From Candidatus Poseidoniaceae archaeon (GTDB taxonomy: Archaea; Thermoplasmatota; Poseidoniia; Poseidoniales; Poseidoniaceae), in assembly GCA_943789275.1 (NCBI GenBank), contig CALSTM010000003.1, positions 600,001 to 632,000 of the forward strand: a stretch of 32,000 bases of DNA. The letters run 5' to 3'. Shown piece by piece: positions 1-29,173 of this stretch. Below the pieces are notes generated by a model that was not told the origin of the DNA, ran no database searches, and saw nothing but the letters and a program-made list of their open reading frames with translations. Every line of letters starts with the position of its first letter. Positions within the stretch are counted from its first letter, which is position 1. The translations under genes and the position numbers were made by a program.

Positions 1-1101
1 TCCAACAAACAGGTTGCTGCAGGATACCAACACACCTGCGCCATTCTTGACAATGGTTCTGTGATGTGCTGGGGAGAGAATGGCCACGGACAGTTAGGCA
101 ATGGTGGAACAGGCGACGAACACATACCCGTTTGGGTTGATCTTGGCACGGATAGGACCGCCGTTGCGATCACTGCTGGATACAGACACACCTGCGCCAT
201 TCTTGACAACGGTTCAGTTTCCTGTTGGGGACAGGGAATTTTTGGGCAATTAGGTAATGGAGGAACATCACAACAAACCTCACCAACGCTCACCAGCAGC
301 CTTGGAACCGGCCGTACGGCCGTAGCGATCACTGCTGGATACAGTCACACCTGCGTCATTCTTGACAACGGTTCAGTTTCCTGTTGGGGAATCGGAAATA
401 AAGGACACTTGGGTAACGGAGGTACATCACAACAAAACTCACCAACGCTCACCAGCAGCCTTGGTACCGGCCGTACGGCCGTAGCGATTTCTGCTGGACA
501 ATATCACTCCTGCGCCATTCTTGACAGCGGTTCAGTTTCCTGTTGGGGGTATGGAATTGAGGGACAATTGGGTAACGGAGGTACATCACAACAAAACTCA
601 CCAACACTCACCAGCAGCCTTGGAACCGGTCGTACGGCCGTAGCGATTTCTGCTGGAGGCATCCACACCTGTGCCATACTTGACAACGGTTCAGTCTCAT
701 GTTGGGGGGAGGGAAGTAAAGGACGATTGGGTAACGGAGGTACATCACAACAAAACTCACCAACGCTCACCAACAGCCTTGGAACCGGTCGTACGGCCGT
801 AGCGATTTCTGGTGGAGCCAAACACACCTGCGCCATTCTTGACAGCGGTTCAGTCTCATGTTGGGGAGATGGAGCCATTGGCATACTGGGTGACGGGGGG
901 ACATCAGATCAACACTCACCAACGCTCACCAGCAGCCTTGGAACTGGCCGAACGGCAGTTGCGCTTGAGAATGGACACGCCCACACCTGTGCCATTCTTG
1001 ACGACGCTTCCATGAAGTGTTGGGGAAATGACAACAACAAGCAGTTAGGCAATGGAGCCACAGGCAGCACCGGCGACCCACCCGTTTTGGTATCAGGCAG
1101 C
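1..1101 (+). repeat. RCC1-type beta-propeller blades, at least 6.5 copies of ~159 bp (53 aa)
   Basis: CWGxGxxGQLGNGGTSQQxSPTLTSSLGTGRTAVAIxAGxxHTCAILDNGSVS recurs with a 159-bp period. This matches the RCC1 blade signature (G.LG ... HTCA.L ... G.V.CWG). The first blade(s) lie upstream of the window. Confidence 0.9.
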
Positions 1102-4100
1102 CATACGTGGGACTCCACGATGATTTCAGGTTCATCAAGTACAGTTTACCTTGTACAGAATGCGCTTATGAGTTCACTTTCTCCAACGTTAGACGCTGGC
1201 TTCGGTGCACCCACTTCATGCAACCAAACAGGGCTACCTTCTGGCCTTTTACTTAGCACCACATGCGTGCTCTCAGGAACACCGACAACGTTGGGCAGTA
1301 CAACGCTGACAATTACCCCCTCGAATGCAGAAGGTAATGGTTCTGCAGCCATTTTTATCGTCAATGTGAATGCTTCAGGTGGTTCAATCACCATCAACAC
1401 AACCTCCACCGAAGGTGGCGTAGGCAGTGCCATCTCAGACATCACCATGTCGTATACACACACCGCCAGCATTCCAAATTGGGTCTCAGGTGTGACCAAC
1501 AGCACAATTAATCCAGCCCCCTCAATTCCAGCCGGCGGGGGTTCAAAACTTTCAATCGATTCTGGTCTAAACGGAGACATCGCAGCTGTGTATTCAGTGG
1601 AGCGAACCGGCGCGACCTCAGCCAATCTCTCCTTGCTCTACAAGTGGAACGGGGCATGGACAGAGAGTACCATTGACAGCAGTGTCGATACGGAGGTTCC
1701 ATCGGTTGCTATCGACCGACAGGGAGCACTTCACATCGGGTATGTCGATAAGGACAATGCCAAGTTGAAGTACGCCACCAATGCATCTGGGTCTTGGGTC
1801 GTTGAAACGTTGGGTGATGCAGCGACTCACCAATTTGCACAAACGGCAATTTCAGTGCATCCGGTCACAAATGCAATTCATATCATGGCCGTGAACGGAT
1901 CGACCATCCCAACCGCAGGATTGAATCATCACACAAACGAAACAGGTACCTGGCTCTACTCAACCATTTCTGACCCATCAGAGGAAGAGGGATTCGGGGT
2001 TAATTTCGATATTGACTCAGATGGTAACCTGCATGTTGTTTTCCGAAGAGAAGCCAACAGTGTCACGACCCCTCACTATGACCACTTGATAATGGCCAGT
2101 CGAATAAACGGTGTTTGGCAAAACCAGACCATTGCAATCAATCTGATTAACGGTGCGTATGGACATCACTTTGACATGGCCATTGATTCACAAGATCAAA
2201 TACACGTAACATATCAAGGTAACCTCAATCAAGGAAAATGGATTTGGCATGGCGTATTATCAAGTGTTAACCCAAGCAGTAGCTGGGTTTTAACTCAATT
2301 ATCTACCTCAGGATTTTACCCAGCTTTGGCCGTCGATTCAAACGACAATGTGCACCTTTCTTATCACGGTGGTGCGGGCTGTCCAAGGATCAGTGGTACC
2401 AAACATACACCTCTGGAACGTGGAGTTCGACGAATCGAAACAAGCGCCACCGCCGGCAACATTCATGGGGGTTACTTCAATGAAATGACCACAGATTCCA
2501 ATGATGATGTCTTTATATTTGCTTATGGGCAAGTGGTTTCCACTTGCAAAAGTTGTGACATTCGAATAACCAGAATTCAAGGTTTAGGACCAAGTCTTGC
2601 GACGAATCCGATTTTCGAGGTATCACCACCACTCCCAGACGGACTGAACATGAACTGGCACAACGGTACCATTTCTGGAACACCGACTGAAACCCACGCG
2701 AACACTACACACACCGTCACAGTGACTGCCTTTGGCGCAACCACAACTGAAACATTCACACTTATGGTCATTGAAGCAGCCGATATTTCCTACGCAGGTT
2801 CACCGTTTACGTTCACCAAGAACACCGAAGTCGTTGGAGAAACACCAACCAACGCTGGTGGAGCAGTCATCACATGGGCAATTCACCCGCCAGCATCTTC
2901 GCTACCAAACGGTCTCTTGTTTGGCCCATCCAACGGAACCATCTACGGTACACCGACCACTGTGGTCTCTTCCGCCGTTACGTTCACCGTTTGGGCGAAC
3001 AATTCGGCTGACAGCAATTCGACAACCATTTCGATCACCGTTCAAGACGAAGCTCCTGACATTTCGTATGCAGGTTCACCGTTTACGTTCACCAAGAACA
3101 CGGAAGTTGTTGGAGAAACACCAACCAACGCTGGTGGTGCGGTAAGCACATGGGCAATTCACCCGCCAGCATCTTCGCTACCAAACGGTCTCTTGTTTGG
3201 CACATCCAACGGAACCATCTACGGAACACCGACCACTGTGGTCTCTTCAGCCGTTACGTTCACGGTTTGGGCGAACAATTCTGCCGATGATATTTCGACA
3301 ACCATTTCGATTACTGTTCAAGATGAAGATGCTGACATTTCGTACGCAGGTTCACCGTTCACATTCACCAAGAACAGTCTTGTGAGCGGTGCAACGCCAA
3401 CTAACGTTGGTGGCGCACCAGATGCATGGGCTATTGATCCAGAAATCTCTACCACGATTCCAGGACTCTCGTTCAACACCGCAACGGGTGCTATCACCGG
3501 TACGCCAACAGGAGTACATTCGGCCACTATGTTCACCGTTTGGGCCAACAATTCCGCAGGTGATATTTCGACAACCATTTCGATCACCGTTCAAGATGAA
3601 GATGCTGACATTTCGTACGCAGGTTCACCGTTCACGTTCACCAAGAACAGTCTTGTGAGCGGTGCAACGCCAACTAACGTTGGTGGCGCACCAGATGCAT
3701 GGGCTATTGATCCAGAAATCTCTACCACGATTCCAGGACTCTCGTTCAACACCGCAACGGGTGCTATCACCGGTACGCCAACAGGAGTACATTCGGCCAC
3801 TATGTTCACCGTTTGGGCCAACAATTCCGCAGGTGATATTTCGACAACCATTTCGATCACCGTTCAAGATGAAGATGCTGACATTTCGTACGCAGGTTCA
3901 CCGTTCACATTCACCAAGAACAGTCTTGTGAGCGGTGCAACGCCAACTAACGTTGGTGGCGCACCAGATGCATGGGCTATTGATCCAGAAATCTCTACCA
4001 CGATTCCAGGACTCTCGTTCAACACCGCAACGGGTGCTATCACCGGTACGCCAACAGGAGTACATTCGGCCACTATGTTCACCGTTTGGGCCAACAATTC

Positions 4101-7100
4101 CGCAGGTGATATTTCGACAACCATTTCGATCACCGTTCAAGATGAAGATGCTGACATTTCGTACGCAGGTTCACCGTTCACATTCACCAAGAACAGTCTT
4201 GTGAGCGGTGCAACGCCAACTAACGTTGGTGGCGCACCAGATGCATGGGCTATTGATCCAGAAATCTCTACCACGATTCCAGGACTCTCGTTCAACACTG
4301 CAACGGGTGCTATCACCGGTACGCCAACAGGAGTACATTCGGCCACTATGTTCACCGTTTGGGCCAACAATTCCGCAGGTGATATTTCGACAACCATTTC
4401 GATCACCGTTCAAGATGAAGATGCTGACATTTCGTACGCAGGTTCACCGTTCACATTCACCAAGAACAGTCTTGTGAGCGGTGCAACGCCAACTAACGTT
4501 GGTGGCGCACCAGATGCATGGGCTATTGATCCAGAAATCTCTACCACGATTCCAGGACTCTCGTTCAACACCGCAACGGGTGCTATCACCGGTACGCCAA
4601 CAGGAGTACATTCGGCCACTATGTTCACCGTTTGGGCCAACAATTCCGCAGGTGATATTTCGACAACCATTTCGATCACTGTGAACGACATTGCACCAGT
4701 TTTCACATATTCATCCCTCGAAGTGACATTAACCAATAATTCGGCGGTATCGCTCTTGCCAATCAGCACGGGCGGGGCGGTCACATCGTGGGAGTACGTA
4801 GGAACTGAACCACTCGGTTTGAACTTCGAAGGCGGAAATGGAACCATTTGGGGCACACCAACCGTTGTTCAATCGAAAACTCAATACTTGATTTGGGGGA
4901 ACAATTCAGGTGGACAGCTTTTGGTTTACATGAACATCACCATTTCTGATGTGCCTGTTTCCTTGAGTTACACCTCTGACAATTACAACCTCACGCGTGC
5001 TGTCACAATGACAACGCCAATCAGTCCAGTTTACACTGGTATTGTTGATGCGTGGGGCATTGAACCTTCACCTACATTGGCGGGTCTCTCTTGGGATTCA
5101 TCCACAGGTGTGATTTCAGGTACGCCAAACATCAACATGACCCGAACAGAATACACCGTTTGGGCAAACAATACCGGTGGTAACGTGTCTCATAAGTTCA
5201 ACATCACCATCAACGAACCGATTGTGACCTTGGTCTACACTCCTGCGAGCGAAACCTTTGTTCGAGGTACGACAATCACCAACTGGCTCCCAACGGTGAC
5301 CGGTGGAAACGTCGAAACTTGGGGCATTGAACCTTCAATTACGGGAACTGGTCTTTCGTTTGTCAACGGAGTGATTTCGGGTACACCGACCATCAACATG
5401 ACCCAAGCCGATTACATCGTATGGGCCAACACGACCGGTGGCGAGACCAACTTTACCATCAGCATTACCATCAATGAACCGATTGTGACCTTGGTCTACA
5501 CTCCTGCGAGCGAAACCTTTGTTCGAGGTACGACAATCACCAACTGGCTCCCAACGGTGACCGGTGGAAACGTCGAAACTTGGGGCATTGAACCTTCAAT
5601 TACGGGAACTGGTCTTTCGTTTGTCAACGGAGTGATTTCGGGTACACCGACCATCAACATGACCCAAGCCGATTACATCGTATGGGCCAACACAACCGGT
5701 GGCGAGACCAACTTTACCATCACCATCACCATCAATGAACCGATTGTGACCTTGGTCTACACTCCTGCGAGCGAAACCTTTGTTCGAGGTACGACAATCA
5801 CCAACTGGCTCCCAACGGTGACCGGTGGAAACGTCGAAACTTGGGGCATTGAACCTTCAATTACGGGAACTGGTCTTTCGTTTGTCAACGGAGTGATTTC
5901 GGGTACACCGACCATCAACATGACCCAAGCCGATTACATCGTATGGGCCAACACAACCGGTGGCGAGACCAACTTTACCATCACCATCACCATCAACGAA
6001 CCTGGAGTCATCCTTGAGTACAATCCAGAAAATGTAATCGTCACAATTGGTGACCCAATGACTGCGTTGACCCCAATTGTCAGCAACGGGAGCGTTGAGA
6101 TATGGAGCATTTATCCCGAACTTGATAATGGATTGAACTTTGCAAACGGAATCATCTCAGGAACGCCAACAAGCATTCAATCAAAACAAACCTACAAGAT
6201 TTGGGCTAACAACACAGGCGGCAATACATATCACGATGTCAACATCACAATCCTTGACATCGTTCCTGAAATTTCCTACAGTCTCGTAAGCATTGACCTT
6301 ACTAATGATACGACAAGCAGTGAGTTGCCTCTCTCCCCGAGTAACCTCGGCGGTCCAGTGGTGTCATGGTCGATTACGCCAGACCTCAGCCTTGGCTTGT
6401 CGTTTGACCCTGCAACCGGCGTCATCAGTGGAACACCCACTGAAGTCACAGCACTTCGAGTCTACACCGTTACTGCAACAAATACAGGTGGAACGAGCAC
6501 GACAGAGATTGAAATCACCGTTCTTGACCAAGTTCCGATGATTGCATACGTGCCTTCGGATGAAGTTCTGCTCTTGAACGAGAGTGTCCTGAACATGGTA
6601 CCTGAATCCACGGGTGGAGCAATCACGGGCTGGTCAATCACACCTGAGCCATCTGCTGGTTTGTTCTTTGACGCATCGACCGGTGTTTTCAGCGGTACGC
6701 CTACGGAGACAATGATTCGAACCCTGTACGAGATTACAGCAACAAATGATGTGGGAAGCATGACCGTTTCGGTTAACATCACCGTTGAAGATTTGAATTA
6801 CAACCTCTCGCTTGGTCCGATTTATTTGCTCATTAATGAGGAAATGTTGAGTTTAGAACCGACATCAACCCTCTCTGATGCTGTCTATGAAGTCAGCCCA
6901 GATCTGCCTGATGGTCTCTTCCTTGGAGAAAGCAATGGAACCATTTGGGGCACACCAACGGTTGGAATGCCTCTGACAAATTTCACCATCTATGCCAACA
7001 GCAGTTTGTTCAATGATGTGCTTGAAATCCAAATCGGAGTCCTAGAAGATTCAGATTCGGATGGAATGCCGAACCAACTGCCGCTTGGTTACAATCCACT

Positions 7101-9144
7101 CGGCGGTCTTACCGAAGACTTGGACGATGACGGTGACGGCTTCACTGATGCCGAGGAAAGCGAATGCGTTTCAGACGCATTGGATGCAGATTCAGCGCCA
7201 ACCGACCTCGATGGCGATTCCATCTGCGACGCATTGGATGATGACGTCGACGGCGATGGCTTGTTGAATGATGTTGAAACAAACACCTCAACCTACGTGG
7301 ATGAGAACGATACTGGAACCGACTCAATGAACGCTGACACCGACGGTGACGGCGTTTGCGATGGACCTCAAGTGCCAGCTAACGGCGGCTGCACCGCAGG
7401 ACCAGATGTGTTCCCACTCGACCCTGCAGGCTCCGTTGACAGCGATGGTGACGGCATGCCGGACACTTTGAACGGTGAATCCACCAGTTCACCACCTCTG
7501 GTCGAAGACCTCGATGACGACAACGACGCTTGGTCTGACGAGATGGAAGCAGCATGTGGAACGGACAGCGTCGATTCGAACAGTGTTCCTAGCGATGAAG
7601 ACGCCGACGAAATCTGTGACAGCCTTGACACGAACCTGGACCTGCCGTTCAACCTCACATACCCAACCGATACATTGACTGTAACATTAGGTGAAGAGAT
7701 TTCAATCCTGCTTCCAAACCTCACCGGTTTGGGTGAAGTGTCTTCTTGGGAGATTGAAGGTGAATTGCCCGAGGGATTGACCTTTGGCTGGAGTCCAGCA
7801 AGGGATGCTGCTCTTGACGGAAGTATACGTGGTACACCAACTGCAGTAATGTCTGCGACCGTCTTTACCATCTGGGCGAACAACTCTGCATACAGTCAAT
7901 CGTTTGAACTTACGATTACTGTTCTCGAAGACCTCGTTCTTCCAAATGATGATGGTGATGCTGGTGTTGATGAGGATGATGAGGACACCCCGCTGCTCCT
8001 CACTTGGGGTTACATCTGTTGCCCGTTGCTTCTTCTGCTTCTGCTGTCCGTCTTTATGTTGTTCTTCATCGGTGAAAAACAAGTCGTTATCGATGCTGAA
8101 CCTTCAAACACTTTTGTAAAACCAGTTAGCAAAAGAGGCACAGGTACTCAAGAAGATCCTTTCGTATTGAAATCAATTGGAGGTCTCAAACCCGGTGGAA
8201 AAGCGAACAGCCATGAACGAATTACATTCGTCGGCTTGACAGTAGAGAGTATTGAAATAATCGATTTGGAGCAAAAGAACAATGGAAATAAATTTTCCAT
8301 GTTCATGCTCAAGCCAGCCTCCAGTGAAACGGGTGTTCGAATGCTTGGTATCGACGAGAATGTAGACACCACCATTGGCATGAGATTCGATGACAGTAAA
8401 GAAGAATCTTCCGTTAAGGGCGATGAATATTCAGCGTTGTTGAAAATTGGCAAATCCAGTGTTTACTTTTCTTGGACGGTGACGGTTAAACCGAGCAAGG
8501 TCAACAAAGTGAAGCCTAGAGAACCAATAGTGACGATTAAATCGACACAATCCATGTCCAAATCGGGTTCAATGAGTTCTTCTGAACCAAAGTCGTCCGT
8601 GGAGGAGAAGGCTGCAAAGGATGCTGAAGCTAAGGCTGCAAAGGATGCCAAAGCGCAAGCAGATGCGGATACTAAGGCGGCAAAGGAAGCCAAAGCGCAA
8701 GCAGATGCGGATGCTAAGGCGGCAAAGGAAGCCAAAGCGCAAGCAGATGCGGATGCTAAGGCGGCGAAGGAACTCAAAGCACAAGCGGATTCAGAAGCCA
8801 AAGCAGTTAAAGAAGCCAGAGCCAAAGTCGACGAAGATGCTGCAGCTGTTGCCAAAAAGGCAGAAGAATTGGAACGTATCGCAAAGCGGGCTAAAAGTAT
8901 TGATTTCGCTACGCTCGGTGTGGCTAACATCGGTGAAAAAGATGACCTGCAAGCCATCAAGGGCGTTGGTCCGTTCATCGGAGAAAAGTTGAATGCACTC
9001 GGCATCTTTACGTTTGAGCAAGTCGGAAACATGACGCCTGAAATTGAAGAACAGGTCAACAAAGCGATTGAATTTTTCCCTGGCCGCGTTAAGCGAGACC
9101 AGTGGGCGAAGCAAGCAAGGCAACTTCATCATGATAAAAAGTGA
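1..9144 (+). CDS. Giant C-terminally membrane-anchored cell-surface protein (RCC1 propeller / unnamed propeller / He_PIG Ig-like array / TSP3-like Ca-binding / TM / cytoplasmic tail); 5' end lies upstream of the window
   Basis: Frame 1 is open from nt 1. Nt 1-60 translate SNKQVAAGYQHTCAILDNGS, the middle of an RCC1 blade, so the GTG at 61 used by the ORF track is internal. Stop TGA is at 9142-9144. The domain grammar is uninterrupted and self-consistent over 9.1 kb. Confidence 0.93.
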   Translation, partial: SNKQVAAGYQHTCAILDNGSVMCWGENGHGQLGNGGTGDEHIPVWVDLGTDRTAVAITAGYRHTCAILDNGSVSCWGQGIFGQLGNGGTSQQTSPTLTSSLGTGRTAVAITAGYSHTCVILDNGSVSCWGIGNKGHLGNGGTSQQNSPTLTSSLGTGRTAVAISAGQYHSCAILDSGSVSCWGYGIEGQLGNGGTSQQNSPTLTSSLGTGRTAVAISAGGIHTCAILDNGSVSCWGEGSKGRLGNGGTSQQNSPTLTNSLGTGRTAVAISGGAKHTCAILDSGSVSCWGDGAIGILGDGGTSDQHSPTLTSSLGTGRTAVALENGHAHTCAILDDASMKCWGNDNNKQLGNGATGSTGDPPVLVSGSHTWDSTMISGSSSTVYLVQNALMSSLSPTLDAGFGAPTSCNQTGLPSGLLLSTTCVLSGTPTTLGSTTLTITPSNAEGNGSAAIFIVNVNASGGSITINTTSTEGGVGSAISDITMSYTHTASIPNWVSGVTNSTINPAPSIPAGGGSKLSIDSGLNGDIAAVYSVERTGATSANLSLLYKWNGAWTESTIDSSVDTEVPSVAIDRQGALHIGYVDKDNAKLKYATNASGSWVVETLGDAATHQFAQTAISVHPVTNAIHIMAVNGSTIPTAGLNHHTNETGTWLYSTISDPSEEEGFGVNFDIDSDGNLHVVFRREANSVTTPHYDHLIMASRINGVWQNQTIAINLINGAYGHHFDMAIDSQDQIHVTYQGNLNQGKWIWHGVLSSVNPSSSWVLTQLSTSGFYPALAVDSNDNVHLSYHGGAGCPRISGTKHTPLERGVRRIETSATAGNIHGGYFNEMTTDSNDDVFIFAYGQVVSTCKSCDIRITRIQGLGPSLATNPIFEVSPPLPDGLNMNWHNGTISGTPTETHANTTHTVTVTAFGATTTETFTLMVIEAADISYAGSPFTFTKNTEVVGETPTNAGGAVITWAIHPPASSLPNGLLFGPSNGTIYGTPTTVVSSAVTFTVWANNSADSNSTTISITVQDEAPDISYAGSPFTFTKNTEVVGETPTNAGGAVSTWAIHPPASSLPNGLLFGTSNGTIYGTPTTVVSSAVTFTVWANNSADDISTTISITVQDEDADISYAGSPFTFTKNSLVSGATPTNVGGAPDAWAIDPEISTTIPGLSFNTATGAITGTPTGVHSATMFTVWANNSAGDISTTISITVQDEDADISYAGSPFTFTKNSLVSGATPTNVGGAPDAWAIDPEISTTIPGLSFNTATGAITGTPTGVHSATMFTVWANNSAGDISTTISITVQDEDADISYAGSPFTFTKNSLVSGATPTNVGGAPDAWAIDPEISTTIPGLSFNTATGAITGTPTGVHSATMFTVWANNSAGDISTTISITVQDEDADISYAGSPFTFTKNSLVSGATPTNVGGAPDAWAIDPEISTTIPGLSFNTATGAITGTPTGVHSATMFTVWANNSAGDISTTISITVQDEDADISYAGSPFTFTKNSLVSGATPTNVGGAPDAWAIDPEISTTIPGLSFNTATGAITGTPTGVHSATMFTVWANNSAGDISTTISITVNDIAPVFTYSSLEVTLTNNSAVSLLPISTGGAVTSWEYVGTEPLGLNFEGGNGTIWGTPTVVQSKTQYLIWGNNSGGQLLVYMNITISDVPVSLSYTSDNYNLTRAVTMTTPISPVYTGIVDAWGIEPSPTLAGLSWDSSTGVISGTPNINMTRTEYTVWANNTGGNVSHKFNITINEPIVTLVYTPASETFVRGTTITNWLPTVTGGNVETWGIEPSITGTGLSFVNGVISGTPTINMTQADYIVWANTTGGETNFTISITINEPIVTLVYTPASETFVRGTTITNWLPTVTGGNVETWGIEPSITGTGLSFVNGVISGTPTINMTQADYIVWANTTGGETNFTITITINEPIVTLVYTPASETFVRGTTITNWLPTVTGGNVETWGIEPSITGTGLSFVNGVISGTPTINMTQADYIVWANTTGGETNFTITITINEPGVILEYNPENVIVTIGDPMTALTPIVSNGSVEIWSIYPELDNGLNFANGIISGTPTSIQSKQTYKIWANNTGGNTYHDVNITILDIVPEISYSLVSIDLTNDTTSSELPLSPSNLGGPVVSWSITPDLSLGLSFDPATGVISGTPTEVTALRVYTVTATNTGGTSTTEIEITVLDQVPMIAYVPSDEVLLLNESVLNMVPESTGGAITGWSITPEPSAGLFFDASTGVFSGTPTETMIRTLYEITATNDVGSMTVSVNITVEDLNYNLSLGPIYLLINEEMLSLEPTSTLSDAVYEVSPDLPDGLFLGESNGTIWGTPTVGMPLTNFTIYANSSLFNDVLEIQIGVLEDSDSDGMPNQLPLGYNPLGGLTEDLDDDGDGFTDAEESECVSDALDADSAPTDLDGDSICDALDDDVDGDGLLNDVETNTSTYVDENDTGTDSMNADTDGDGVCDGPQVPANGGCTAGPDVFPLDPAGSVDSDGDGMPDTLNGESTSSPPLVEDLDDDNDAWSDEMEAACGTDSVDSNSVPSDEDADEICDSLDTNLDLPFNLTYPTDTLTVTLGEEISILLPNLTGLGEVSSWEIEGELPEGLTFGWSPARDAALDGSIRGTPTAVMSATVFTIWANNSAYSQSFELTITVLEDLVLPNDDGDAGVDEDDEDTPLLLTWGYICCPLLLLLLLSVFMLFFIGEKQVVIDAEPSNTFVKPVSKRGTGTQEDPFVLKSIGGLKPGGKANSHERITFVGLTVESIEIIDLEQKNNGNKFSMFMLKPASSETGVRMLGIDENVDTTIGMRFDDSKEESSVKGDEYSALLKIGKSSVYFSWTVTVKPSKVNKVKPREPIVTIKSTQSMSKSGSMSSSEPKSSVEEKAAKDAEAKAAKDAKAQADADTKAAKEAKAQADADAKAAKEAKAQADADAKAAKELKAQADSEAKAVKEARAKVDEDAAAVAKKAEELERIAKRAKSIDFATLGVANIGEKDDLQAIKGVGPFIGEKLNALGIFTFEQVGNMTPEIEEQVNKAIEFFPGRVKRDQWAKQARQLHHDKK
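1380..2595 (+). other. Seven-blade beta-propeller-like region of an unnamed repeat family (propeller A1)
   Basis: Seven divergent 45-55 aa units share a core, e.g. PSVAIDRQGALHIGYVDKDNAKLKYATNASGSWVVETLG, FGVNFDIDSDGNLHVVF, HFDMAIDSQDQIHVTYQ, YPALAVDSNDNVHLSYH. The fold assignment is inferred from the 7-fold periodicity and strand-like pattern. I do not recognise the family. Confidence 0.55.
2773..3324 (+). repeat. 2 x 276-bp tandem He_PIG units (older relatives of the 273-bp array)
   Basis: EA(A/P)DISYAGSPFTFTKNTEVVGETPTNAGGAV(I/S)TWAIHPPASSLPNGLLFG(P/T)SNGTIYGTPTTVVSSAVTFTVWANNSAD... occurs twice in tandem. Confidence 0.9.
3325..4689 (+). repeat. 5 x 273-bp near-identical in-frame tandem repeat (one 91-aa He_PIG domain per unit)
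   Basis: Direct reading gives units at 3325, 3598, 3871, 4144 and 4417. Shadow ORFs in other frames recur every 273 bp (3318/3591/3864/4137/4410). The only internal differences I see are 3636 (G vs A) and 4299 (T vs C), both synonymous. Confidence 0.97.
5212..5994 (+). repeat. 3 x 261-bp near-identical in-frame tandem repeat (87-aa He_PIG unit)
   Basis: NEPIVTLVYTPASETFVRGTTITNWLPTVTGGNVETWGIEPSITGTGLSFVNGVISGTPTINMTQADYIVWANTTGGETNFTI(S/T)ITI occurs 3 times, with units starting at 5212, 5473 and 5734. Units 2 and 3 look identical by eye. Confidence 0.95.
7040..7640 (+). other. Thrombospondin type-3-like acidic Ca-binding repeats
   Basis: Repeated DxDxDGxxDxxD motifs, several with Cys: DSDSDGMPN, DLDDDGDGFTD, DLDGDSICDALDDDVDGDGLLND, DTDGDGVCD, DSDGDGMPD, DEDADEICD. 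Confidence 0.75.
7993..8072 (+). other. Single transmembrane helix (anchor)
   Basis: The hydrophobic stretch LLLTWGYICCPLLLLLLLSVFMLFFIG follows an acidic stretch (DDGDAGVDEDDEDTP) and precedes Lys-containing sequence. This suggests an N-out/C-in orientation. Confidence 0.8.
8073..8490 (+). other. Conserved post-TM (predicted cytoplasmic) module shared with gene 2
   Basis: KRGTGTQEDPFVLKS...SVYFSWTVTVKPSK is collinear with KSGAGTREDPFIIQT...SVYFQWTVKMKPKK at 28694-29170. Function unknown. Confidence 0.5.
8635..8802 (+). repeat. ~4 x 42-bp Lys/Ala-rich repeat (AAKEAKAQADADAK) inside a longer K/A/E/D-rich, probably helical segment (about 8608-8895)
   Basis: 8677-8718 and 8719-8760 are identical 42-mers, flanked by diverged copies at 8635 and 8761. 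Confidence 0.9.
8941..9125 (+). other. C-terminal helix-hairpin-helix / H3TH-like domain (COG3743-like)
   Basis: DDLQAIKGVGPFIGEKLNALGIFTFEQVGNMTPEIEEQVNKAIEFFPGRVKRDQWAKQARQL. From memory, the pattern DDL..I.G(I/V)GP....L...GI.TF.Q(I/V)......F.GR(I/V).RD.W..QA..L typifies the COG3743 module appended to assorted proteins such as alphaproteobacterial NuoE. Confidence 0.6.
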
Positions 9145-9229: not shown

Positions 9230-9553
9230 ATGAGAGGGGACGCCGTAGGTATGCCTCTCTTTCAATCGGGCCACTCTGCTGTGTTGAACAGAAAGTCCAT
9301 CAAGTCAATTTGGCTTGCAGTTTTGATGGTTTCAATGTCGCTTTCTGTTGGCATCGTTGAATTGAACCGGACACCGTTGGTAGATGCCATTGGTGTAGCA
9401 AGTGTTGGAGCAGGCTGTGCGTTTATCACTCGGGCCAGCGGCGAGGCAATCTATGTCGATCCGGTCAACGGTTCGGATGCTTGGGACGGCACCTGGTCGT
9501 GTCCAAAAGCAACACTTTCCGATGCTCTGAACGACTCCATTTCAGAACGATGA
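9230..9553 (+). CDS. Gene 2 fragment 1: signal peptide plus start of the beta-helix lead-in
   Basis: ATG at 9230. The N-terminus has a basic region followed by a hydrophobic region (NRKSIKSIWLAVLMVSMSLSVGIV, h-region about 9308-9358). It ends ...AIYVDPVNGSDAWDGTWSCPKATLSDALNDSISER*, and the sense continues in frame 3 as NDEIVLYSGRYHENVTVDG. Confidence 0.8.
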   Translation: MRGDAVGMPLFQSGHSAVLNRKSIKSIWLAVLMVSMSLSVGIVELNRTPLVDAIGVASVGAGCAFITRASGEAIYVDPVNGSDAWDGTWSCPKATLSDALNDSISER

Positions 9554-19361: not shown

Positions 19362-19940
19362 TGTGGCTTACTTTGGTCAACAAACATCTTCTGGAATTTT
19401 CTCGCTCTATGCTTACAATGCTTCAAATGCGACGCTATGGATGGTTTCAGGGAGTAATGCTAATCGTGGTGTTGCTGTAACTATTGACGGTGTATTGTAT
19501 GGTAGTCGTGGTCTACAGTTCTCTTCCAGGTGGCTCTACACTCTGGGCGCACAACCCTAACAACGGAACCTCGTGGGTAATTGCTCCAAACATTGCTCCA
19601 GGAATTAATCAGGCTTTTGAGATAGCCGGAACGCTGTATTACAGGGGCGGTTTATCTTCCAGCCAAGAAGTATGGGCGTATGAGCCGACCAATACGACGG
19701 CATGGAAGGTCACGGACATCACGCTCCCTCAATCCGGCCTCTTCTTTGCCCTTGGTGACCTCATTTACTTTACAGGCAGCAACGCCACGACCAGTGGTGT
19801 TTGGGCGCACAGCACTTCCAACCATTCGACCTGGTTTGTGAGCAATCCATTCTCAAGCAACGCCGCCACCGCGGTTGCTGTTGTGAACGGTACGCTTTAC
19901 TTGGGTAATTCTGGAATGGCTGCTCATCAGCCAACCTCCA
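18640..19940 (+). other. Kelch-like ~9-blade propeller region spanning three reading frames
   Basis: Each blade has ...(Y/F)F.G...(L/V)(W/H/Y)(A/G)(H/Y)N.SN.T.W: LHGYGIANNTLW, LYGYGMENETVW, LHGHNLSNGTTW, TWAHNISNGTSW, LYAYNASNATLW, LWAHNPNNGTSW, VWAYEPTNTTAW, VWAHSTSNHSTW. Confidence 0.6.
19225..19560 (+). CDS. Gene 2 fragment 3 (frame 1): two kelch-like blades. Only about 19330-19515 is judged genuinely coding
   Basis: AGAQVIGDVAYFGQQTSSGIFSLYAYNASNATLWMVSGSNANRGVAVTIDGVLYGSRG fits the blade pattern of the flanking frames. Confidence 0.7.
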   Translation: MCLWQSSVTVVPTVVRHGRTTSATGHLGASQSYMMHTTAGAQVIGDVAYFGQQTSSGIFSLYAYNASNATLWMVSGSNANRGVAVTIDGVLYGSRGLQFSSRWLYTLGAQP

Positions 19941-21943: not shown

Positions 21944-22036
21944 TGACGCTCAAGACGTTCACAATTTCGGCGAGCAATAGCGGCGGTTCAGTCAATGCAA
22001 CCGTTAACATCACTGTCAATGATGAAGCCCCTGATA
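21834..22036 (+). CDS. Gene 2 fragment 5: one He_PIG unit split over frame 3 (21834-21893) and frame 1 (21895-22036)
   Basis: VMGSGTITSWAISPALPSGL, then an extra A at 21894, then SFGTSNGTIWGTPTSLMTLKTFTISASNSGGSVNATVNITVNDEAPDI. It overlaps track ORF 21940..22140, whose tail is out of frame. Confidence 0.7.
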
Positions 22037-26923: not shown

Positions 26924-29173
26924 ATCATCCCAGAAATCTCCTATTCTCCGCCAGAAATGGTCCTTACAAACAACACTTCGATGGCCTATTGGTCTCCACT
27001 CAATGTCGGTGGGCCCGCTCTTTCATGGAGTATTTCTCCAGAACTTTCTCCAGGACTGTTGTTCGATTCCTCCAACGGTACAATTTCGGGACTACCAACC
27101 GAGGTTGCCCCACTGCTCAACTATACAGTCTCAGCGACCAACAGTGGAGGCACTTCCGAGTTTAGCATCAACATCACCGTCGTTGGAAACGTTCCTCTCA
27201 TTGAATATGTGCCGAGTGACATTGTTTTACTCAACAATTCGAGCATACTTGATTTGTTACCGCTTTCTACCGGTGGAGCTGTGTTGGAATGGTCAATTAC
27301 TCCGGAACTGCCGCTCGGCCTTACGTTTGACAACACATCTGGTCGCATGAACGGTACGCCTGTTGAAGTGAGCAGCCAAACTCAGTATTCAGTGACGGTC
27401 ATCAACGATGACGGATTTTTGACTGTTATGGTCAACATCACCGTTGAAGACCTTGTTTATGAGACCGCTCAAGGCGTTTTCAATGCCCTCAATAAATCGA
27501 TGATTGAATCAATCGAGCCGCTTTCTTTCATCAGCGATTCAGTGTACGAGATTCACCCTGCTCTTCCAACGGGTCTTTCGATTGGACCGTTGAACGGTAC
27601 CATTTGGGGAGTTCCGAGTGAAGTCATGGAACTGAAGAGTTACACTGTGTATTCGAATTCAAGTTTGTTCAATGACACCTTCATCATAATGCTGCGAGTT
27701 CTTGAAGACTCAGACAACGATTCCTTACCAGACGCTCTGCCTGTTGGATATGATTTGATCGGAGAACTCATTGAAGATTTAGATGATGATGACGACGGTT
27801 ATTCTGATTTGCTTGAAGACGAGTGTTTGAGCGATTCGCTTGACGATAATTCGATGCCCGGCGACCTTGACGGTGATTCCATTTGTGACCCGCTGGACAA
27901 CGACGTTGACGGTGACGGACTGTTCAACCTCTTGGAAGATAGCAGTGGGAACTACACATCAATCATTGATACGGGGACGAACCCACTGCTTGCAGATACT
28001 GATGGTGACGGCGTTTGTGATGGCCCACTCATCCCTGCGAACGGAGGCTGCACAATGGGACCTGATGCCTTCCCGAATGACCCTTCAGCATTTGCCGATA
28101 CCGATGGAGATGGTATGCCCGACGAAATGTTTGGAAATTCAACCAGTGAACCACCGTTGATACTTGATTTGGATGATGATAATGATTTGTGGACCGACCT
28201 CCAGGAAGAGGAGTGCGGAACTGACCATCTTGACCAATACAGTGTACCTGAAGATGCAGACGGTGACGGAATCTGTAACAACCTCGATGAGCGAATGGAT
28301 CTTTCTTTCAATCTCACCTATCCGATTACCAACCGAACACTCCTCTTGGATGAAGAGATGGAGCCTTTGCTTCCGAACATCACTGGAATTGGGGAAATTG
28401 AGACTTGGGAAATTGTTGGGGAATTACCTGATGGTTTGACCTTTGGATGGAGTCCAGCTCGAGACGCCCTTCTGGACGGAAGCATCCGAGGTACACCTAC
28501 TGAACTGATGAACGCCACTGATTTCGTCATTTGGGCGAACAATTCGGGGTACAGTCGATCGTTCATGATTACACTTGAAGTTTCATATGAATACTATCCA
28601 GAGGATAACAATGCGACACCGCAGGTATTGGGCTACATCTTGTGCCCGCTCTTTTTGTTGGTTTTGGTTGCCGTGGCTATGCTACTTGTTCCAAAGAAAA
28701 AAGTTGTCTTCAGAGATGCTCAGCCACAAAACACGTCCTCTCGTCCGAAGTTCAAGAGCGGTGCTGGAACTCGGGAGGACCCGTTCATTATCCAGACGCT
28801 TACCGGCGTTGAAGCCAGAACGTTTGTGCTTAGCAAGGAATCAATCACGACAAATGAAGTCTCACCTTCGAGCGTGTTTGACATTCGGGATGAAAACGAG
28901 GTCGAGAACGATGGCCGATTTAAAATCCTCAATCACCACAATGAATCTTCTTCTGTGGAAGAGGAATGGTCACCGGTTTCAAGACTCAACTCTGACCAAG
29001 AAGGTGTTCTCATCTACCAATTGGCTTTTGATGACCGTGACTCTGCTACGGTTCGTGAAAGTTCTTACACGACTTTGTTCAAGGTAGGGAACGAATCCGT
29101 GTATTTCCAATGGACGGTCAAGATGAAACCGAAGAAGAACCCGAGGAAGAAGTCGGGCAAGAAATCAAAGTGA
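26483..29173 (+). CDS. Gene 2 fragment 9 (frame 2): He_PIG units, TSP3-like module, TM anchor, cytoplasmic tail; true C-terminus
   Basis: It begins mid-domain (VSWAISPAVPSGLAFDTSTGVLSGTPT) and ends at TGA 29171-29173. It is collinear with gene 1 nt ~6240-8490. Confidence 0.92.
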   Translation: MSWAISPAVPSGLAFDTSTGVLSGTPTELLTRSMFTITATNTGGTATAYINITIVDELPTIAYSPNDLIMTNNTVSSDLPLSPTITGSGEIVSWAISPSEPSGLSFDTSNGTLSGTPTELLTRTMYTITATNTGGTATAYINITVLDIIPEISYSPPEMVLTNNTSMAYWSPLNVGGPALSWSISPELSPGLLFDSSNGTISGLPTEVAPLLNYTVSATNSGGTSEFSINITVVGNVPLIEYVPSDIVLLNNSSILDLLPLSTGGAVLEWSITPELPLGLTFDNTSGRMNGTPVEVSSQTQYSVTVINDDGFLTVMVNITVEDLVYETAQGVFNALNKSMIESIEPLSFISDSVYEIHPALPTGLSIGPLNGTIWGVPSEVMELKSYTVYSNSSLFNDTFIIMLRVLEDSDNDSLPDALPVGYDLIGELIEDLDDDDDGYSDLLEDECLSDSLDDNSMPGDLDGDSICDPLDNDVDGDGLFNLLEDSSGNYTSIIDTGTNPLLADTDGDGVCDGPLIPANGGCTMGPDAFPNDPSAFADTDGDGMPDEMFGNSTSEPPLILDLDDDNDLWTDLQEEECGTDHLDQYSVPEDADGDGICNNLDERMDLSFNLTYPITNRTLLLDEEMEPLLPNITGIGEIETWEIVGELPDGLTFGWSPARDALLDGSIRGTPTELMNATDFVIWANNSGYSRSFMITLEVSYEYYPEDNNATPQVLGYILCPLFLLVLVAVAMLLVPKKKVVFRDAQPQNTSSRPKFKSGAGTREDPFIIQTLTGVEARTFVLSKESITTNEVSPSSVFDIRDENEVENDGRFKILNHHNESSSVEEEWSPVSRLNSDQEGVLIYQLAFDDRDSATVRESSYTTLFKVGNESVYFQWTVKMKPKKNPRKKSGKKSK
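27700..28300 (+). other. Thrombospondin type-3-like acidic Ca-binding repeats (paralogue of 7040-7640)
   Basis: DSDNDSLPD, DLDDDDDGYSD, DLDGDSICDPLDNDVDGDGLFN, DTDGDGVCD, DTDGDGMPD, DADGDGICN. Confidence 0.75.
28625..28693 (+). other. Single transmembrane helix (anchor) of gene 2
   Basis: VLGYILCPLFLLVLVAVAMLLVP is followed by KKK. Confidence 0.8.
28694..29170 (+). other. Post-TM (predicted cytoplasmic) module of gene 2, ending in a Lys-rich tail
   Basis: KSGAGTREDPFIIQT...SVYFQWTVKMKPKKNPRKKSGKKSK is homologous to gene 1 nt 8073-8490. It lacks the K/A repeat and the HhH domain. Confidence 0.5.

What the first reader, a model, noticed from the sequence alone, without database searches (positions are those of the whole stretch)
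8073..9144. Cytoplasmic tail of a giant surface protein carries a Lys/Ala-rich 42-bp repeat and a helix-hairpin-helix (COG3743-like) domain
After the TM helix, gene 1 has four parts. First is a ~140-aa module shared with gene 2. Second is a Ser-rich linker. Third is a K/A/E/D-rich, probably helical segment built on AAKEAKAQADADAK (two perfect 42-bp copies at 8677-8760). Fourth is DDLQAIKGVGPFIGEKLNALGIFTFEQVGN...FPGRVKRDQWAKQARQL. The last part matches my memory of the H3TH/HhH module catalogued as COG3743 (a predicted flap-endonuclease-like DNA-binding fold), which is usually found appended to unrelated proteins. A nucleic-acid-binding-type fold on the inner end of an extracellular protein of more than 2,600 aa would be an unusual outside-to-inside coupling. 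Gene 2 lacks parts two to four, so they are an accessory addition.
Basis: partly seen in the sequence, partly recalled or inferred. Interest (0 to 1): 0.65.

Follow-up and report, generated by a model that had tools for sequence, protein, structure and literature searches.

The report
DNA-binding-type tail on archaeal giant surface protein
A giant cell-surface protein of the abundant ocean archaea Poseidoniales ends, on the inside of the cell, in a conserved tail that holds a helix-hairpin-helix domain related to one reported to tie storage granules to bacterial DNA, so these surface proteins may be physically linked to the chromosome.

Summary
After one transmembrane helix (7993-8073), gene 1 has four parts:
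- a 141-aa beta-sandwich module (8074-8496);
- a Ser-rich linker;
- a Lys/Ala/Asp/Glu helical spacer built on a 42-bp repeat (two perfect copies at 8677-8760);
- a C-terminal ~90-aa helix-hairpin-helix (HhH) domain (8872-9141).

The HhH domain matches the C-terminal extensions of alphaproteobacterial NuoE, S2, L21 and phasin PhaH (E 4.5e-18 to 1.4e-8), which is the COG3743-type domain. Pfam HhH families hit consistently but below threshold. No FEN-1-like nuclease part or fold match was found.

The tail is not a one-off. A scan of GTDB species genomes gave 470 relatives, and the best 80 are all Poseidoniales. They carry 1-3 HhH copies, always at the very C-terminus of giant ORFs. Charge, glycosylation-sequon and positive-inside statistics place the tail in the cytoplasm.

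PhaH's HhH domain is reported to bind DNA non-specifically and tether granules to the nucleoid. The best reading is therefore a spacer-borne nucleoid tether on a surface protein. That function is inferred, not shown. I rate it a new variant of a known kind, of moderately high interest.

The parts
1..7992 (+). Extracellular part of gene 1, truncated at the window's left end. It holds RCC1 repeats, about 20 He_PIG Ig-like repeats and acidic Asp-rich (thrombospondin-3-like) repeats.
   Evidence: Pfam: WD40_RLD 2.7e-94, RCC1 3.2e-51, He_PIG 4.2e-70. There are 59 N-X-S/T sequons in 2662 aa and K+R is 2.0%. Near-identical 273-, 261- and 159-bp tandem arrays are present.
7993..8073 (+). Single transmembrane helix with a conserved Cys pair and Pro near its outer end (YICCP; WCFPC in relatives).
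   Evidence: It is a 27-residue hydrophobic run. Across 81 distinct homologous helices, the flank after the helix has 1.95 K+R and the flank before it 0.57; the C-side is more basic in 65 of 81. At least 2 Cys lie in the first 14 residues in 60 of 81.
8074..8496 (+). Juxtamembrane ~140-aa beta-sandwich module. It starts with the conserved motif DAEPSNT (8092-8112; GPEPENT in relatives) followed by G-x-G-T-x-x-D-P-F.
   Evidence: Alignment A1 of 25 sequences has invariant P8, T11, G20, G22, P27, S127-V128-Y129 and W132. AlphaFold2 gives pLDDT 82, all beta. Foldseek finds generic Ig-like/ASH/PapD-like sandwiches with TM 0.4-0.5. There is no Pfam or PHROG family. The module profile finds 385 proteins at E<=1e-3 among 1.84 billion representatives.
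8497..8601 (+). Ser-rich, probably flexible linker (KVNKVKPREPIVTIKSTQSMSKSGSMSSSEPKSSV).
   Evidence: Read directly from the translation.
8602..8871 (+). Ala/Lys/Asp/Glu helical spacer built on the 14-aa unit AAKEAKAQADADAK. The 42-bp tandem array lies at 8620-8790 and the two perfect copies at 8677-8760.
   Evidence: TRF: 4.1 copies, 91% matches. The two copies are identical. There are 20 i/i+4 opposite-charge pairs against 9.8 +/- 2.6 in shuffles (1 of 2000 reach it), and only 5% L/I/V/M/F. The closest orthologue, P0001, lacks exactly 42 aa, which is 3 units. The end of the segment is helical in the AF2 model.
8872..9141 (+). C-terminal helix-hairpin-helix domain of the COG3743 / NuoE-L21-S2-PhaH-Urf1 type. 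It has a lead (8872-8940), a core (8941-9126) with a canonical HhH at 8947-9000 (LQAIKGVGPFIGEKLNAL) and the signature FPGRVKRDQWAKQA, and a basic end HHDKK (9127-9141). The stop codon is at 9142-9144.
   Evidence: NCBIfam hits. PDB sequence hits to protein-O 8yy9_O (E 2.1e-12) and Urf1 9wqv_a (E 3.4e-12), rising to about 1e-17 with the profile. AF2 gives pLDDT 88.7 and a five-helix domain after a long helix. Invariant residues are K42, G43, G45, P46, G83, R84, D88, W90, Q93 and A94; R87 is nearly invariant.
28625..29170 (+). End of gene 2: transmembrane helix (28625-28690), a paralogous module (28694-29131) and a 13-aa basic tail. It has no spacer and no HhH domain.
   Evidence: tblastn 35% identity, E 1.7e-24. 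Coordinates. It aligns over the whole of A1.

Best explanation
What it is (high confidence). Bases 7993-9141 encode the membrane anchor and cytoplasmic tail of a giant glycosylated surface protein of a Poseidoniales (Marine Group II) archaeon. The tail is a conserved cassette. It consists of a transmembrane helix, an Ig-like beta-sandwich module against the inner face of the membrane, a flexible Ser-rich linker, and a length-variable charged single alpha-helix spacer of about 90 aa. That spacer would be roughly 13 nm long if fully helical, and it grows and shrinks in 14-aa units. The cassette ends in a COG3743-type (HhH)2-like domain at the very C-terminus. Relatives carry one, two or three such domains.

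How it most likely works (inferred). The HhH domain binds double-stranded DNA without sequence preference, through its two Gly-containing hairpins (KGVGP and PGRVKRD) and the basic residues around them. That is what is reported for the homologous C-terminal domain of the Caulobacter phasin PhaH, which ties PHB granules to the nucleoid. Held on a spacer, the domain would reach from the membrane to the nucleoid. It would tether the giant surface protein to the chromosome. This would limit the protein's lateral movement, spread copies over the cell surface and between daughter cells, and anchor a very long ectodomain in a cell without a rigid wall. Extra copies in relatives would raise avidity for a polymeric ligand.

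Shown versus inferred. Shown here: the anatomy, the homology, the conservation and the inferred topology. Inferred: DNA binding and its consequences.
For: Homology of the C-terminal domain.
- The last 83 aa match the C-terminal parts of NuoE PRK12373 (4.5e-18), S2 PRK12311 (1.9e-13), L21 PRK12278 (2.2e-10) and phasin PhaH NF045508 (positions 169-231 of 234, 1.4e-8).
- PhaH is described as using its C-terminal helix-hairpin-helix domain to bind DNA non-specifically and position PHB granules along the nucleoid (review PMC13052382; PMC12028471; the primary paper, Salinas et al. 2023, pmid 37487601, was not readable).
- The whole tail aligns with NuoE and PhaH models including their low-complexity spacers. 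'Spacer plus terminal domain' is therefore the recurring unit.

Fold and conserved residues.
- The AF2 model is confident (pLDDT 88.7) and has the five-helix HhH-connector-HhH order.
- Invariant residues sit in both hairpins.
- All weak Pfam and PDB profile hits are DNA-binding HhH modules: HHH_5, Cdd1, IMS_HHH, Pol lambda/beta fingers, Pol IV, RecG, ComEA.

Cytoplasmic location.
- K+R is 16.7% in the tail and 2.0% in the ectodomain. The tail has 1 sequon in 353 aa; the ectodomain has 59 in 2662 aa.
- Positive-inside holds in 65 of 81 homologous anchors.
- All named carriers of the domain are cytoplasmic or face the cytoplasm.
- A small paralogue anchored by a two-helix hairpin has the same module-spacer-HhH order.

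Conservation.
- 470 relatives were found in GTDB species genomes; the best 80 are all Poseidoniales.
- The domain ends 0-2 residues before the stop codon. The module lies upstream wherever a single uninterrupted ORF reaches back far enough; in a few loci the two parts fall in separate adjacent ORFs. There are 1, 2 or 3 copies.

Spacer behaviour. There is an i/i+4 salt-bridge excess and no hydrophobic seam. A close orthologue differs by exactly three units.
Against: - No DNA-binding assay exists for this protein or for any archaeal member.
- The domain core is net acidic: -2 here, and a mean of -1.4 over 257 copies. Only the flanks are basic.
- Pfam HhH models are all below their gathering scores.
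- Foldseek finds no significant solved structure. The best E is 0.43, with TM 0.43-0.49 to the RadA N-terminal domain and a mitoribosomal factor. A SAM domain, which is a protein-protein module, is also among the weak hits.
- In the two cryo-EM studies that contain the domain (protein-O and protein-3h/Urf1) it was invisible or cleaved off. The authors call its function obscure or unknown.
- The same domain on ribosomal proteins and NuoE has no known DNA-related role.
- The statement about PhaH comes from secondary sources. One says 'binds DNA nonspecifically'; the other says only 'proposed' to improve interaction with the nucleoid.
Confidence: 0.45

Rival explanations
1. Sub-membrane clustering. 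The HhH domain acts as a protein-protein module, as ERCC1-XPF HhH2 and SAM domains do. Tails with 1-3 copies, together with the small module-spacer-HhH paralogue, would cross-link giant surface proteins into a lattice under the membrane that organises the surface coat.
For: - A SAM domain (EphB2, which sits on the cytoplasmic tail of a large receptor) is among the weak fold matches.
- The copy number of 1-3 suits multivalent cross-linking.
- A small paralogue without an ectodomain sits next to the giant gene in several genomes.
- The domain core is acidic.
- Several giant genes with this tail cluster within 10-30 kb in one genome.
Against: - No oligomerisation evidence exists for any member.
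- The nearest member with a reported function (PhaH) is described as DNA-binding.
- The fold matches are all non-significant.
Confidence: 0.2
2. Binding to another cytoplasmic polyanion or large assembly, such as RNA or ribosomes, polyphosphate, or acidic lipid head groups. This would link the surface protein to translation or to membrane domains rather than to the chromosome.
For: - The same domain is fused to ribosomal proteins S2 and L21 and to membrane-associated complexes: NuoE, and Urf1/protein-O in RC-LH1.
- HhH motifs contact the phosphate backbone, so they could in principle bind RNA or other phosphates (established knowledge of HhH motifs).
Against: - A protein already anchored by a transmembrane helix does not need a lipid-binding domain held on a ~13-nm spacer.
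- There is no evidence of RNA binding for any member.
- PhaH data point to DNA.
Confidence: 0.12
3. Passive anchor. The tail is a bulky hydrophilic stopper and spacer that fixes the topology and stabilises the single-helix anchor, without a specific ligand. On this view the HhH domain is a mobile, easily acquired module carried along.
For: - Gene 2 and about a third of the module-bearing proteins end shortly after the module, so the HhH part is dispensable for anchoring.
- The spacer is low-complexity and variable in length.
Against: - The HhH domain is the most conserved part of the tail: 26 invariant columns, and 73-84% identity across Poseidoniales species.
- It is always terminal and often duplicated. 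That argues for selection on a specific function.
Confidence: 0.1
4. Signal release. On attachment, the anchor is cut within or near the membrane, and the freed tail goes to the nucleoid as an outside-in signal.
For: - A conserved motif ([GD][PA]EP[ES]NT) lies just inside the membrane, and a conserved Cys-Pro-Cys lies in the helix.
- Urf1 of Rhodovulum is found cleaved in its linker.
Against: - HhH domains are not sequence-specific, so they make poor transcription factors.
- No protease gene is seen in the window.
- The idea is pure speculation.
Confidence: 0.05
5. The tail is extracellular, and the HhH domain binds environmental DNA as ComEA does.
For: - Distant relatives of the module occur in tandem in phage tail-fibre-like proteins.
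- ComEA is a weak profile hit.
Against: - There is a single hydrophobic helix after a glycosylation-rich, Lys-poor ectodomain.
- The tail has no Cys, 1 sequon and 16.7% K+R.
- Positive-inside statistics agree with a cytoplasmic tail.
- All known carriers of the domain are cytoplasmic.
Confidence: 0.03

Closest known systems
PhaH, the helix-hairpin-helix phasin of Caulobacter crescentus (NCBIfam NF045508; Salinas et al. 2023)
   Same: It has a homologous C-terminal HhH domain (E 1.4e-8 to model positions 169-231 of 234), preceded by a low-complexity spacer. The domain is reported to bind DNA non-specifically and so tether a large cytoplasmic object to the nucleoid.
   Different: PhaH is a small soluble bacterial protein whose N-terminus binds PHB granules. 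Here the 'cargo' is a giant archaeal surface protein (more than 3,000 aa) joined through a membrane helix and an Ig-like module, and relatives carry up to three domain copies.
Urf1 / protein-O (Dinoroseobacter shibae RC-LH1, PDB 8YY9) and protein-3h (Rhodovulum sulfidophilum, PDB 9WQV)
   Same: The order is the same: membrane anchor, long flexible linker, then the same compact C-terminal domain on the cytoplasmic side (E about 1e-12 to 1e-17). This matches the window tail and, even more closely, the small two-helix paralogue.
   Different: These are alphaproteobacterial proteins of about 230 aa with no ectodomain and no beta-sandwich module. The domain was not resolved, or was cleaved off, and its function is stated to be unknown.
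C-terminal extensions of alphaproteobacterial NuoE, ribosomal proteins S2 and L21 (PRK12373, PRK12311, PRK12278; COG3743)
   Same: They have the same terminal domain and the same Ala/Lys/Glu-rich spacer before it. The whole-tail alignment to NuoE covers model positions 182-386 of 400.
   Different: The hosts are soluble, cytoplasm-facing subunits of bacterial complexes. No role is known for the extension.
ComEA, the membrane-anchored HhH DNA receptor of competent bacteria
   Same: It is a membrane-anchored protein that presents a non-specific DNA-binding HhH domain. It is a weak profile hit.
   Different: ComEA's HhH domain is outside the cell and binds incoming DNA. The protein is small, and the sequence relationship is marginal (E 0.93).
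Eukaryotic receptor tails with SAM domains (Eph receptors) and LINC-type envelope-to-chromatin tethers
   Same: The logic is the same: a large extracellular or lumenal protein whose inner end carries a small helical domain that clusters the receptor or ties it to chromatin. The SAM fold is a weak structural match.
   Different: This is analogy only; no homology has been shown.

Membership tests
COG3743-type C-terminal HhH domain (NuoE/S2/L21/PhaH/Urf1 extension) | Significant profile match to the C-terminal extension of curated members | tested here: met
   NCBIfam: NuoE 4.5e-18, S2 1.9e-13, L21 2.2e-10, PhaH 1.4e-8, all matching the models' C-terminal ends. PDB sequences of protein-O and Urf1 match at E 2e-12, and at about 1e-17 with the profile.
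COG3743-type C-terminal HhH domain (NuoE/S2/L21/PhaH/Urf1 extension) | Signature residues: a K-G-h-G-P hairpin and G-R-x-x-R-D-x-W-x-x-Q-A near the end | tested here: met
   KGVGP and GRVKRDQWAKQA are present. K42, G43, G45, P46, G83, R84, D88, W90, Q93 and A94 are invariant and R87 is nearly invariant in 18 diverse copies. The same residues align in protein-O and Urf1.
COG3743-type C-terminal HhH domain (NuoE/S2/L21/PhaH/Urf1 extension) | Position at the extreme C-terminus after a low-complexity Ala/Lys/Glu spacer | tested here: met
   The domain ends 0-2 residues before the stop codon, both in the 120 homologues listed and in the genome loci where the HhH-bearing ORF could be read. The spacer aligns with those of the NuoE and PhaH models.
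COG3743-type C-terminal HhH domain (NuoE/S2/L21/PhaH/Urf1 extension) | Direct hit to the COG3743 profile itself | not testable with these tools
   No COG/CDD library is available. Indirect evidence: JGI names the homologues 'predicted flap endonuclease-1-like 5' DNA nuclease', and metaclust tags P0080 as COG3743.
COG3743-type C-terminal HhH domain (NuoE/S2/L21/PhaH/Urf1 extension) | Non-specific DNA binding (reported for PhaH only) | not testable with these tools
   This needs biochemistry. The literature statement comes from secondary sources.
Pfam helix-hairpin-helix clan (HHH_5, Cdd1, HHH, IMS_HHH) | Score at or above a family's gathering cut-off | tested here: not met
   HHH_5 scores 17.3-17.7 bits against a cut-off of 27, and Cdd1 16.2-16.6 against 25.5. 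Cdd1 hits 17 of 18 family copies and HHH_5 hits 15 of 18, with best E-values of 4.8e-5 and 3e-4. For the window's own copy every HhH-clan hit is below its family cut-off.
Pfam helix-hairpin-helix clan (HHH_5, Cdd1, HHH, IMS_HHH) | Two helices joined by a Gly-h-Gly hairpin, in a five-helix (HhH)2 arrangement | tested here: met
   In the AF2 model a short helical turn (DSSP 38-40) and helix 46-55 flank KGVG. A connector helix at 60-64 follows, and helices 68-77 and 87-101 flank FFPGRVKRD. This rests on a predicted model, not a solved structure.
Pfam helix-hairpin-helix clan (HHH_5, Cdd1, HHH, IMS_HHH) | Significant structural similarity to a solved HhH domain | tested here: inconclusive
   Foldseek against the PDB gives no hit at E<=0.001. 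The weak hits are the RadA N-terminal HhH domain (TM 0.43-0.45, rmsd 2.6-3.7), NusA AR2 and the Pol iota/DinB thumb, but also SAM and lambda repressor. The long leading helix in the model may lower the scores.
FEN-1 / 5' nuclease H3TH proteins | A PIN-like 5' nuclease catalytic domain next to the H3TH motif | tested here: not met
   No nuclease family is hit anywhere in the 391-aa tail in Pfam or NCBIfam. The rest of the tail is a beta-sandwich plus a spacer.
FEN-1 / 5' nuclease H3TH proteins | Fold match to the H3TH region of a solved flap endonuclease | tested here: not met
   No flap endonuclease or 5'-3' exonuclease appears among the 28 Foldseek matches or the 51 profile matches.
PhaH-type nucleoid tether | An N-terminal cargo-binding part plus a C-terminal DNA-binding HhH domain in one polypeptide | tested here: inconclusive
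   The C-terminal domain is homologous. The 'cargo' part is unrelated, being a membrane-anchored giant ectodomain rather than a PHB-binding region. DNA binding is untested.
Archaeosortase / exosortase C-terminal sorting signals (PGF-CTERM, PEP-CTERM) | A short motif before the helix, then the helix, then only a few basic residues | tested here: not met
   The PEP-like motif (DAEPSNT/GPEPENT) lies after the helix, and the tail is 356 aa in gene 1. Gene 2's tail is also about 160 aa.
Coiled coil versus single alpha-helix (SAH) spacer | Coiled coil: a hydrophobic a/d seam. SAH: dense i/i+4 opposite charges with few hydrophobic residues. | tested here: met
   The result is met for SAH-like and not met for a classical coiled coil. 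L/I/V/M/F make up 5%. There are 20 i/i+4 opposite-charge pairs against 9.8 +/- 2.6 in shuffles. No dedicated coiled-coil predictor was available.

The most novel reading that the evidence does not exclude
The giant surface proteins of Poseidoniales, the most abundant planktonic archaea of the surface ocean, are physically tied to the chromosome through spacer-borne, multivalent, non-specific DNA-binding domains. This would be a prokaryotic surface-to-nucleoid tether. It would use the nucleoid as a scaffold to space, immobilise and partition a surface coat, and it could transmit pulling forces from attached particles to the cell interior.
Probability: 0.35. Interest if true: 0.8.

Novelty: new variant of a known kind. 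Interest (0 to 1): 0.6.

Why it matters
Marine Group II archaea are uncultured and very abundant. Their large adhesin-like proteins are mentioned in genome papers only as adhesion genes. I found no description of a conserved cytoplasmic cassette on them in the papers I searched.

If the tail binds DNA, nucleoid tethering would extend from storage granules to membrane-spanning surface proteins, and from bacteria to archaea.

It would also give the widespread but functionally 'obscure' COG3743 domain of NuoE, S2, L21 and Urf1 a testable common role: attaching large assemblies to the nucleoid.

The cassette is also a practical marker. Its conserved peptides pick out the 3' ends of giant genes that are often fragmented in metagenome assemblies.

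Tried and rejected
1. Pfam on the tail gave only sub-threshold HhH hits and a spurious UvrB_inter hit on the module. Nothing was found in PHROGs for the module.
2. Foldseek of the C-terminal model against the PDB gave no significant match, so neither an H3TH nor an (HhH)2 assignment could be confirmed by structure.
3. The two PDB entries that contain the domain by sequence do not resolve it, so there is no experimental structure to compare with.
4. The search for related loci with the module alignment failed for lack of a conserved 7-10-residue stretch. The HhH alignment was used instead. That biases the census towards loci that have the HhH domain.
5. Literature searches for COG3743, NuoE extensions and HhH gave nothing on function except the PhaH work. 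The primary PhaH paper is not held.
6. Two inserts seen in some relatives have no Pfam match. They are a ~60-aa beta-rich insert inside one HhH lead and an acidic 'DKAQIIADATGRSVE...' segment.
7. I considered and rejected a PGF-/PEP-CTERM sorting signal, a classical coiled coil, a nuclease, and an extracellular location. The reasons are in the membership table.
8. P0007 first looked like a stand-alone 561-aa protein. Its contig shows that it follows a 1459-aa RCC1/He_PIG gene with a 4-nt overlap, so it is most likely a frameshift fragment of a giant gene.

Full report
**Observation.** Gene 1 is a single + strand frame. It is open from base 1, so it is cut by the window edge, and it runs to the stop codon at 9142-9144, giving at least 3,047 codons. 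Its extracellular part carries RCC1 repeats, many He_PIG Ig-like repeats and acidic Asp-rich repeats.
- a 141-aa module (8074-8496);
- a Ser-rich linker (8497-8601);
- an Ala/Lys/Asp/Glu segment (8602-8871);
- a terminal domain (8872-9141).

The 42-bp copies 8677-8718 and 8719-8760 are identical. Tandem Repeats Finder reports a 42-bp array at 8620-8790 with 4.1 copies and 91% matches. The module recurs at the end of gene 2 (28601-29137, 35% identity, E 1.7e-24). Gene 2 then stops after 13 basic residues.

**Whose genome, and is the tail conserved?** A search with the 391-aa tail found 440 proteins at E<=1e-3. Those that carry an organism name are named as Poseidoniales or Poseidonia (Marine Group II archaea) or as Euryarchaeota/Thermoplasmatota. 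Ten or so cover the whole tail at 49-77% identity, and one at 35%.

Most of the others score higher than their ~30% coverage would suggest, because they hold several copies of the terminal domain. Domain mapping of the 120 best hits gives these counts:
- module plus one terminal domain: 12 proteins, plus the window's own gene 1, which was scanned with them;
- module plus two terminal domains: 67 proteins;
- module plus three terminal domains: 24 proteins;
- N-terminally truncated fragments: 18 proteins.

A scan of one genome per GTDB species, using two conserved peptides of the domain, found 470 relatives. The best 80 are all Poseidoniales (mostly Poseidoniaceae). Several genomes hold two loci 10-30 kb apart, including the original MG-II assembly CM001443.1.

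In these loci the domain always ends 0-2 residues before the stop codon. The module lies upstream wherever a single ORF reaches back far enough; in a few loci the two parts sit in separate adjacent ORFs. In most loci the ORF runs on to the locus edge, in many for more than 1,400 aa.

A 561-aa hit that looked free-standing follows a 1459-aa RCC1/He_PIG gene with a 4-nt overlap on a 2.02-Mb contig. That locus has the same gene order as the window, so the hit is most likely a frameshift fragment.

**Topology.** Composition differs sharply between the two sides of the helix:

| | Ectodomain | Tail |
|---|---|---|
| K+R | 2.0% | 16.7% |
| N-X-S/T sequons | 59 in 2,662 aa | 1 in 353 aa |
| Cys | 0.9% | none |

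Over 81 distinct homologous anchors, the 15 residues after the helix hold 1.95 K+R, against 0.57 before it. The C-side is the more basic in 65 cases and the less basic in 4.

Every named carrier of the terminal domain is cytoplasmic or faces the cytoplasm. A small Poseidoniales paralogue of about 530 aa sits next to the giant gene in five loci. It has a two-helix membrane hairpin, the same module, a charged and acidic spacer, and a terminal HhH domain that scores near the Pfam HHH_5 threshold (25.5 against 27 bits). I conclude that the tail is cytoplasmic. This is an inference from sequence.

**The terminal domain.** Pfam gives only sub-threshold hits for the window copy (HHH_5 17.3-17.7 bits, Cdd1 16.2-16.6). 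Across 18 diverse copies the hits are consistent and all belong to HhH families: Cdd1 in 17, HHH_5 in 15, IMS_HHH in 8, Pol lambda fingers in 6, DUF4332 in 6.

NCBIfam is decisive for family membership. The last 83 aa match the C-terminal ends of NuoE PRK12373 (4.5e-18), S2 PRK12311 (1.9e-13), L21 PRK12278 (2.2e-10) and phasin PhaH (1.4e-8). The whole tail aligns with NuoE and PhaH through their low-complexity spacers as well. JGI labels the homologues with the COG3743 name, and metaclust tags one as COG3743.

Among PDB sequences the only significant hits are two small membrane proteins of alphaproteobacterial photosynthetic complexes: protein-O (8YY9) and Urf1/protein-3h (9WQV). In both studies the domain is not seen in the map, or is cleaved off, and its function is called obscure or unknown.

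The AlphaFold2 model is confident (pLDDT 88.7). It shows a long helix followed by a five-helix unit with the order helix-KGVG hairpin-helix, connector, helix-FFPGRVKRD loop-helix. The invariant residues fall in both hairpins and in the last helix.

Foldseek finds no significant solved structure. The weak matches include the RadA N-terminal HhH domain, NusA AR2 and Y-family polymerase thumbs, but also a SAM domain. No nuclease domain or flap-endonuclease match appears anywhere.

So the domain is a member of the COG3743-type family and is HhH-like. The 'flap-endonuclease H3TH' part of that family's name is not supported here.

**The module.** The 25-sequence alignment has 14 invariant positions. 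They include a [GD][PA]EP[ES]NT motif right after the helix, G-x-G-T-x-x-D-P-F, and S-V-Y-x-x-W near the end. AlphaFold2 predicts a beta-sandwich (pLDDT 82). Foldseek finds only generic Ig-like, ASH and PapD-like sandwiches at TM 0.4-0.5.

A profile search of 1.84 billion representative proteins finds just 385 hits at E<=1e-3. The strong hits sit near the C-termini of long proteins, and roughly a third of them end shortly after the module, as gene 2 does.

Weaker hits are N-terminal and often tandem copies in long proteins, among them P0152. P0152 also matches phage tail-fibre and virion-protein families.

**The spacer.** The K/A segment has 41% Ala and 5% L/I/V/M/F. It has 20 i/i+4 opposite-charge pairs, against 9.8 +/- 2.6 in shuffles, and only 1 of 2000 shuffles reaches that number. 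This fits a single alpha-helix spacer better than a coiled coil. Ninety helical residues would span about 13 nm.

Its length changes in whole units. The closest orthologue (77% identity) lacks exactly 42 aa, or three units. Spacers in relatives range from about 20 aa (for example L070; P0074 about 50) to more than 250 aa.

**Mechanism.** For only one member of this domain family did I find a reported function: Caulobacter PhaH. A 2025 review states that its N-terminus binds PHB granules. It also states that its C-terminal helix-hairpin-helix domain binds DNA non-specifically, and that this places granules along the nucleoid. A second paper words this as a proposal, and notes a similar disordered region plus HhH domain at the end of haloarchaeal PhaC. 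I could not read the primary paper.

By homology and architecture, I think the window's tail most likely presents a non-specific DNA-binding domain, on a spacer, to the nucleoid. Several features fit that reading:
- the domain is always terminal;
- it always follows a spacer;
- it is often multiplied;
- both hairpins hold invariant Gly and Arg/Lys residues.

Evidence against it:
- the domain core is net acidic (-2 here, mean -1.4), and only the flanks are basic;
- structural support is weak;
- there is no direct evidence.

The main rival is protein-protein clustering under the membrane. Other rivals are binding to other polyanions, a passive anchor, proteolytic release, and an extracellular location, which the evidence disfavours.

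**Comparison and novelty.** The domain family, the giant adhesin-like proteins of MGII and nucleoid tethering by PhaH are each known. What I did not find described is their combination: a conserved cytoplasmic cassette of Ig-like module, charged helical spacer and 1-3 COG3743-type domains on the inner end of giant archaeal surface proteins. I rate it a new variant of a known kind. The function is not shown, so the interest score (0.6) reflects a well-documented, lineage-wide architecture with a plausible and easily testable mechanism.

Noticed in passing
window 9230-29173 (+): Gene 2 is split into at least six same-strand ORFs: 9230-9553 (with a signal-peptide-like start), 9729-19361, 19484-21943, 21995-23383, 23511-26573 and 26483-29173. 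All continue the same repeat types (Laminin_G_3, RCC1, He_PIG and 'DSNDxVHISYY' beta-propeller-like repeats). This means either frameshift errors in very repetitive DNA or a decaying gene. The orthologous locus L001 is fragmented in the same way.
   Followed up: partly
window 8092-8112, and alignment A1 columns 6-12: A conserved motif, [GD][PA]EP[ES]NT (DAEPSNT here, GPEPENT in most relatives), lies immediately after the membrane helix on the cytoplasmic side. It resembles a PEP-type sorting motif but sits on the wrong side of the helix. Its role is unexplained.
   Followed up: partly
window 7993-8035 (start of the transmembrane helix): There is a conserved Cys pair with Pro at the outer end of the helix (YICCP here; WCFPC or WCCW in relatives). 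At least 2 Cys occur in the first 14 residues in 60 of 81 distinct anchors, and a Pro in 71 of 81. It could be a lipidation, disulfide or metal site. It was not investigated further.
   Followed up: partly
L001 11712-13160, L057 1103-2674, L059 309-2030, L060 and L061 4239-5897: A small paralogue of about 530 aa (P0187-like) lies directly downstream of the giant gene in other Poseidoniales. It has a two-helix membrane hairpin, the same beta-sandwich module, a charged helix, a very acidic Glu/Ala/Pro linker and a different C-terminal HhH domain (HHH_5 E 1.9e-5). It is not present in this window.
   Followed up: partly
P0152 (1949 aa), P0206, P0212, P0225, P0241 (from the representative-library search): Distant relatives of the juxtamembrane module occur near the N-terminus, up to five in tandem, in long proteins. 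P0152 also matches PHROG tail-fibre and virion structural families. The Ig-like module may therefore be shared between archaeal tails and marine phage fibres.
   Followed up: partly
relatives P0018, P0019, P0028, P0056 and others (not in the window): In many two- and three-copy tails, one HhH copy has a ~60-aa beta-rich insert between its IDF..LG lead and the DDLQ core (LKTEVKKGA.TLEV..A..F...G.A.I.D..G...I.WTGK.GN.LTGV.GV.R.F). Some tails also hold an acidic segment, 'DKAQIIADATGRSVESIVEDLEDDGIVNLSNE'. Neither has a Pfam match.
   Followed up: partly
window 160-1010, 2785-4679, 5198-6002: There are long, nearly perfect tandem arrays inside the ectodomain of gene 1: 159-bp RCC1 units (5.4 copies, 85% matches), 273-bp He_PIG units (5.2 copies, 99%) and 261-bp units (3.1 copies, 98%). 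These point to recent repeat expansion and are a likely source of assembly problems.
   Followed up: no
window 29183-31862 (-): The genes downstream on the opposite strand are ordinary. They encode a 379-aa membrane protein with a weak DUF3592 hit, a thiopurine S-methyltransferase (1.9e-66) and an enoyl-CoA hydratase (6.4e-44). No protease, sortase or DNA-related gene lies next to the giant genes in this window.
   Followed up: no
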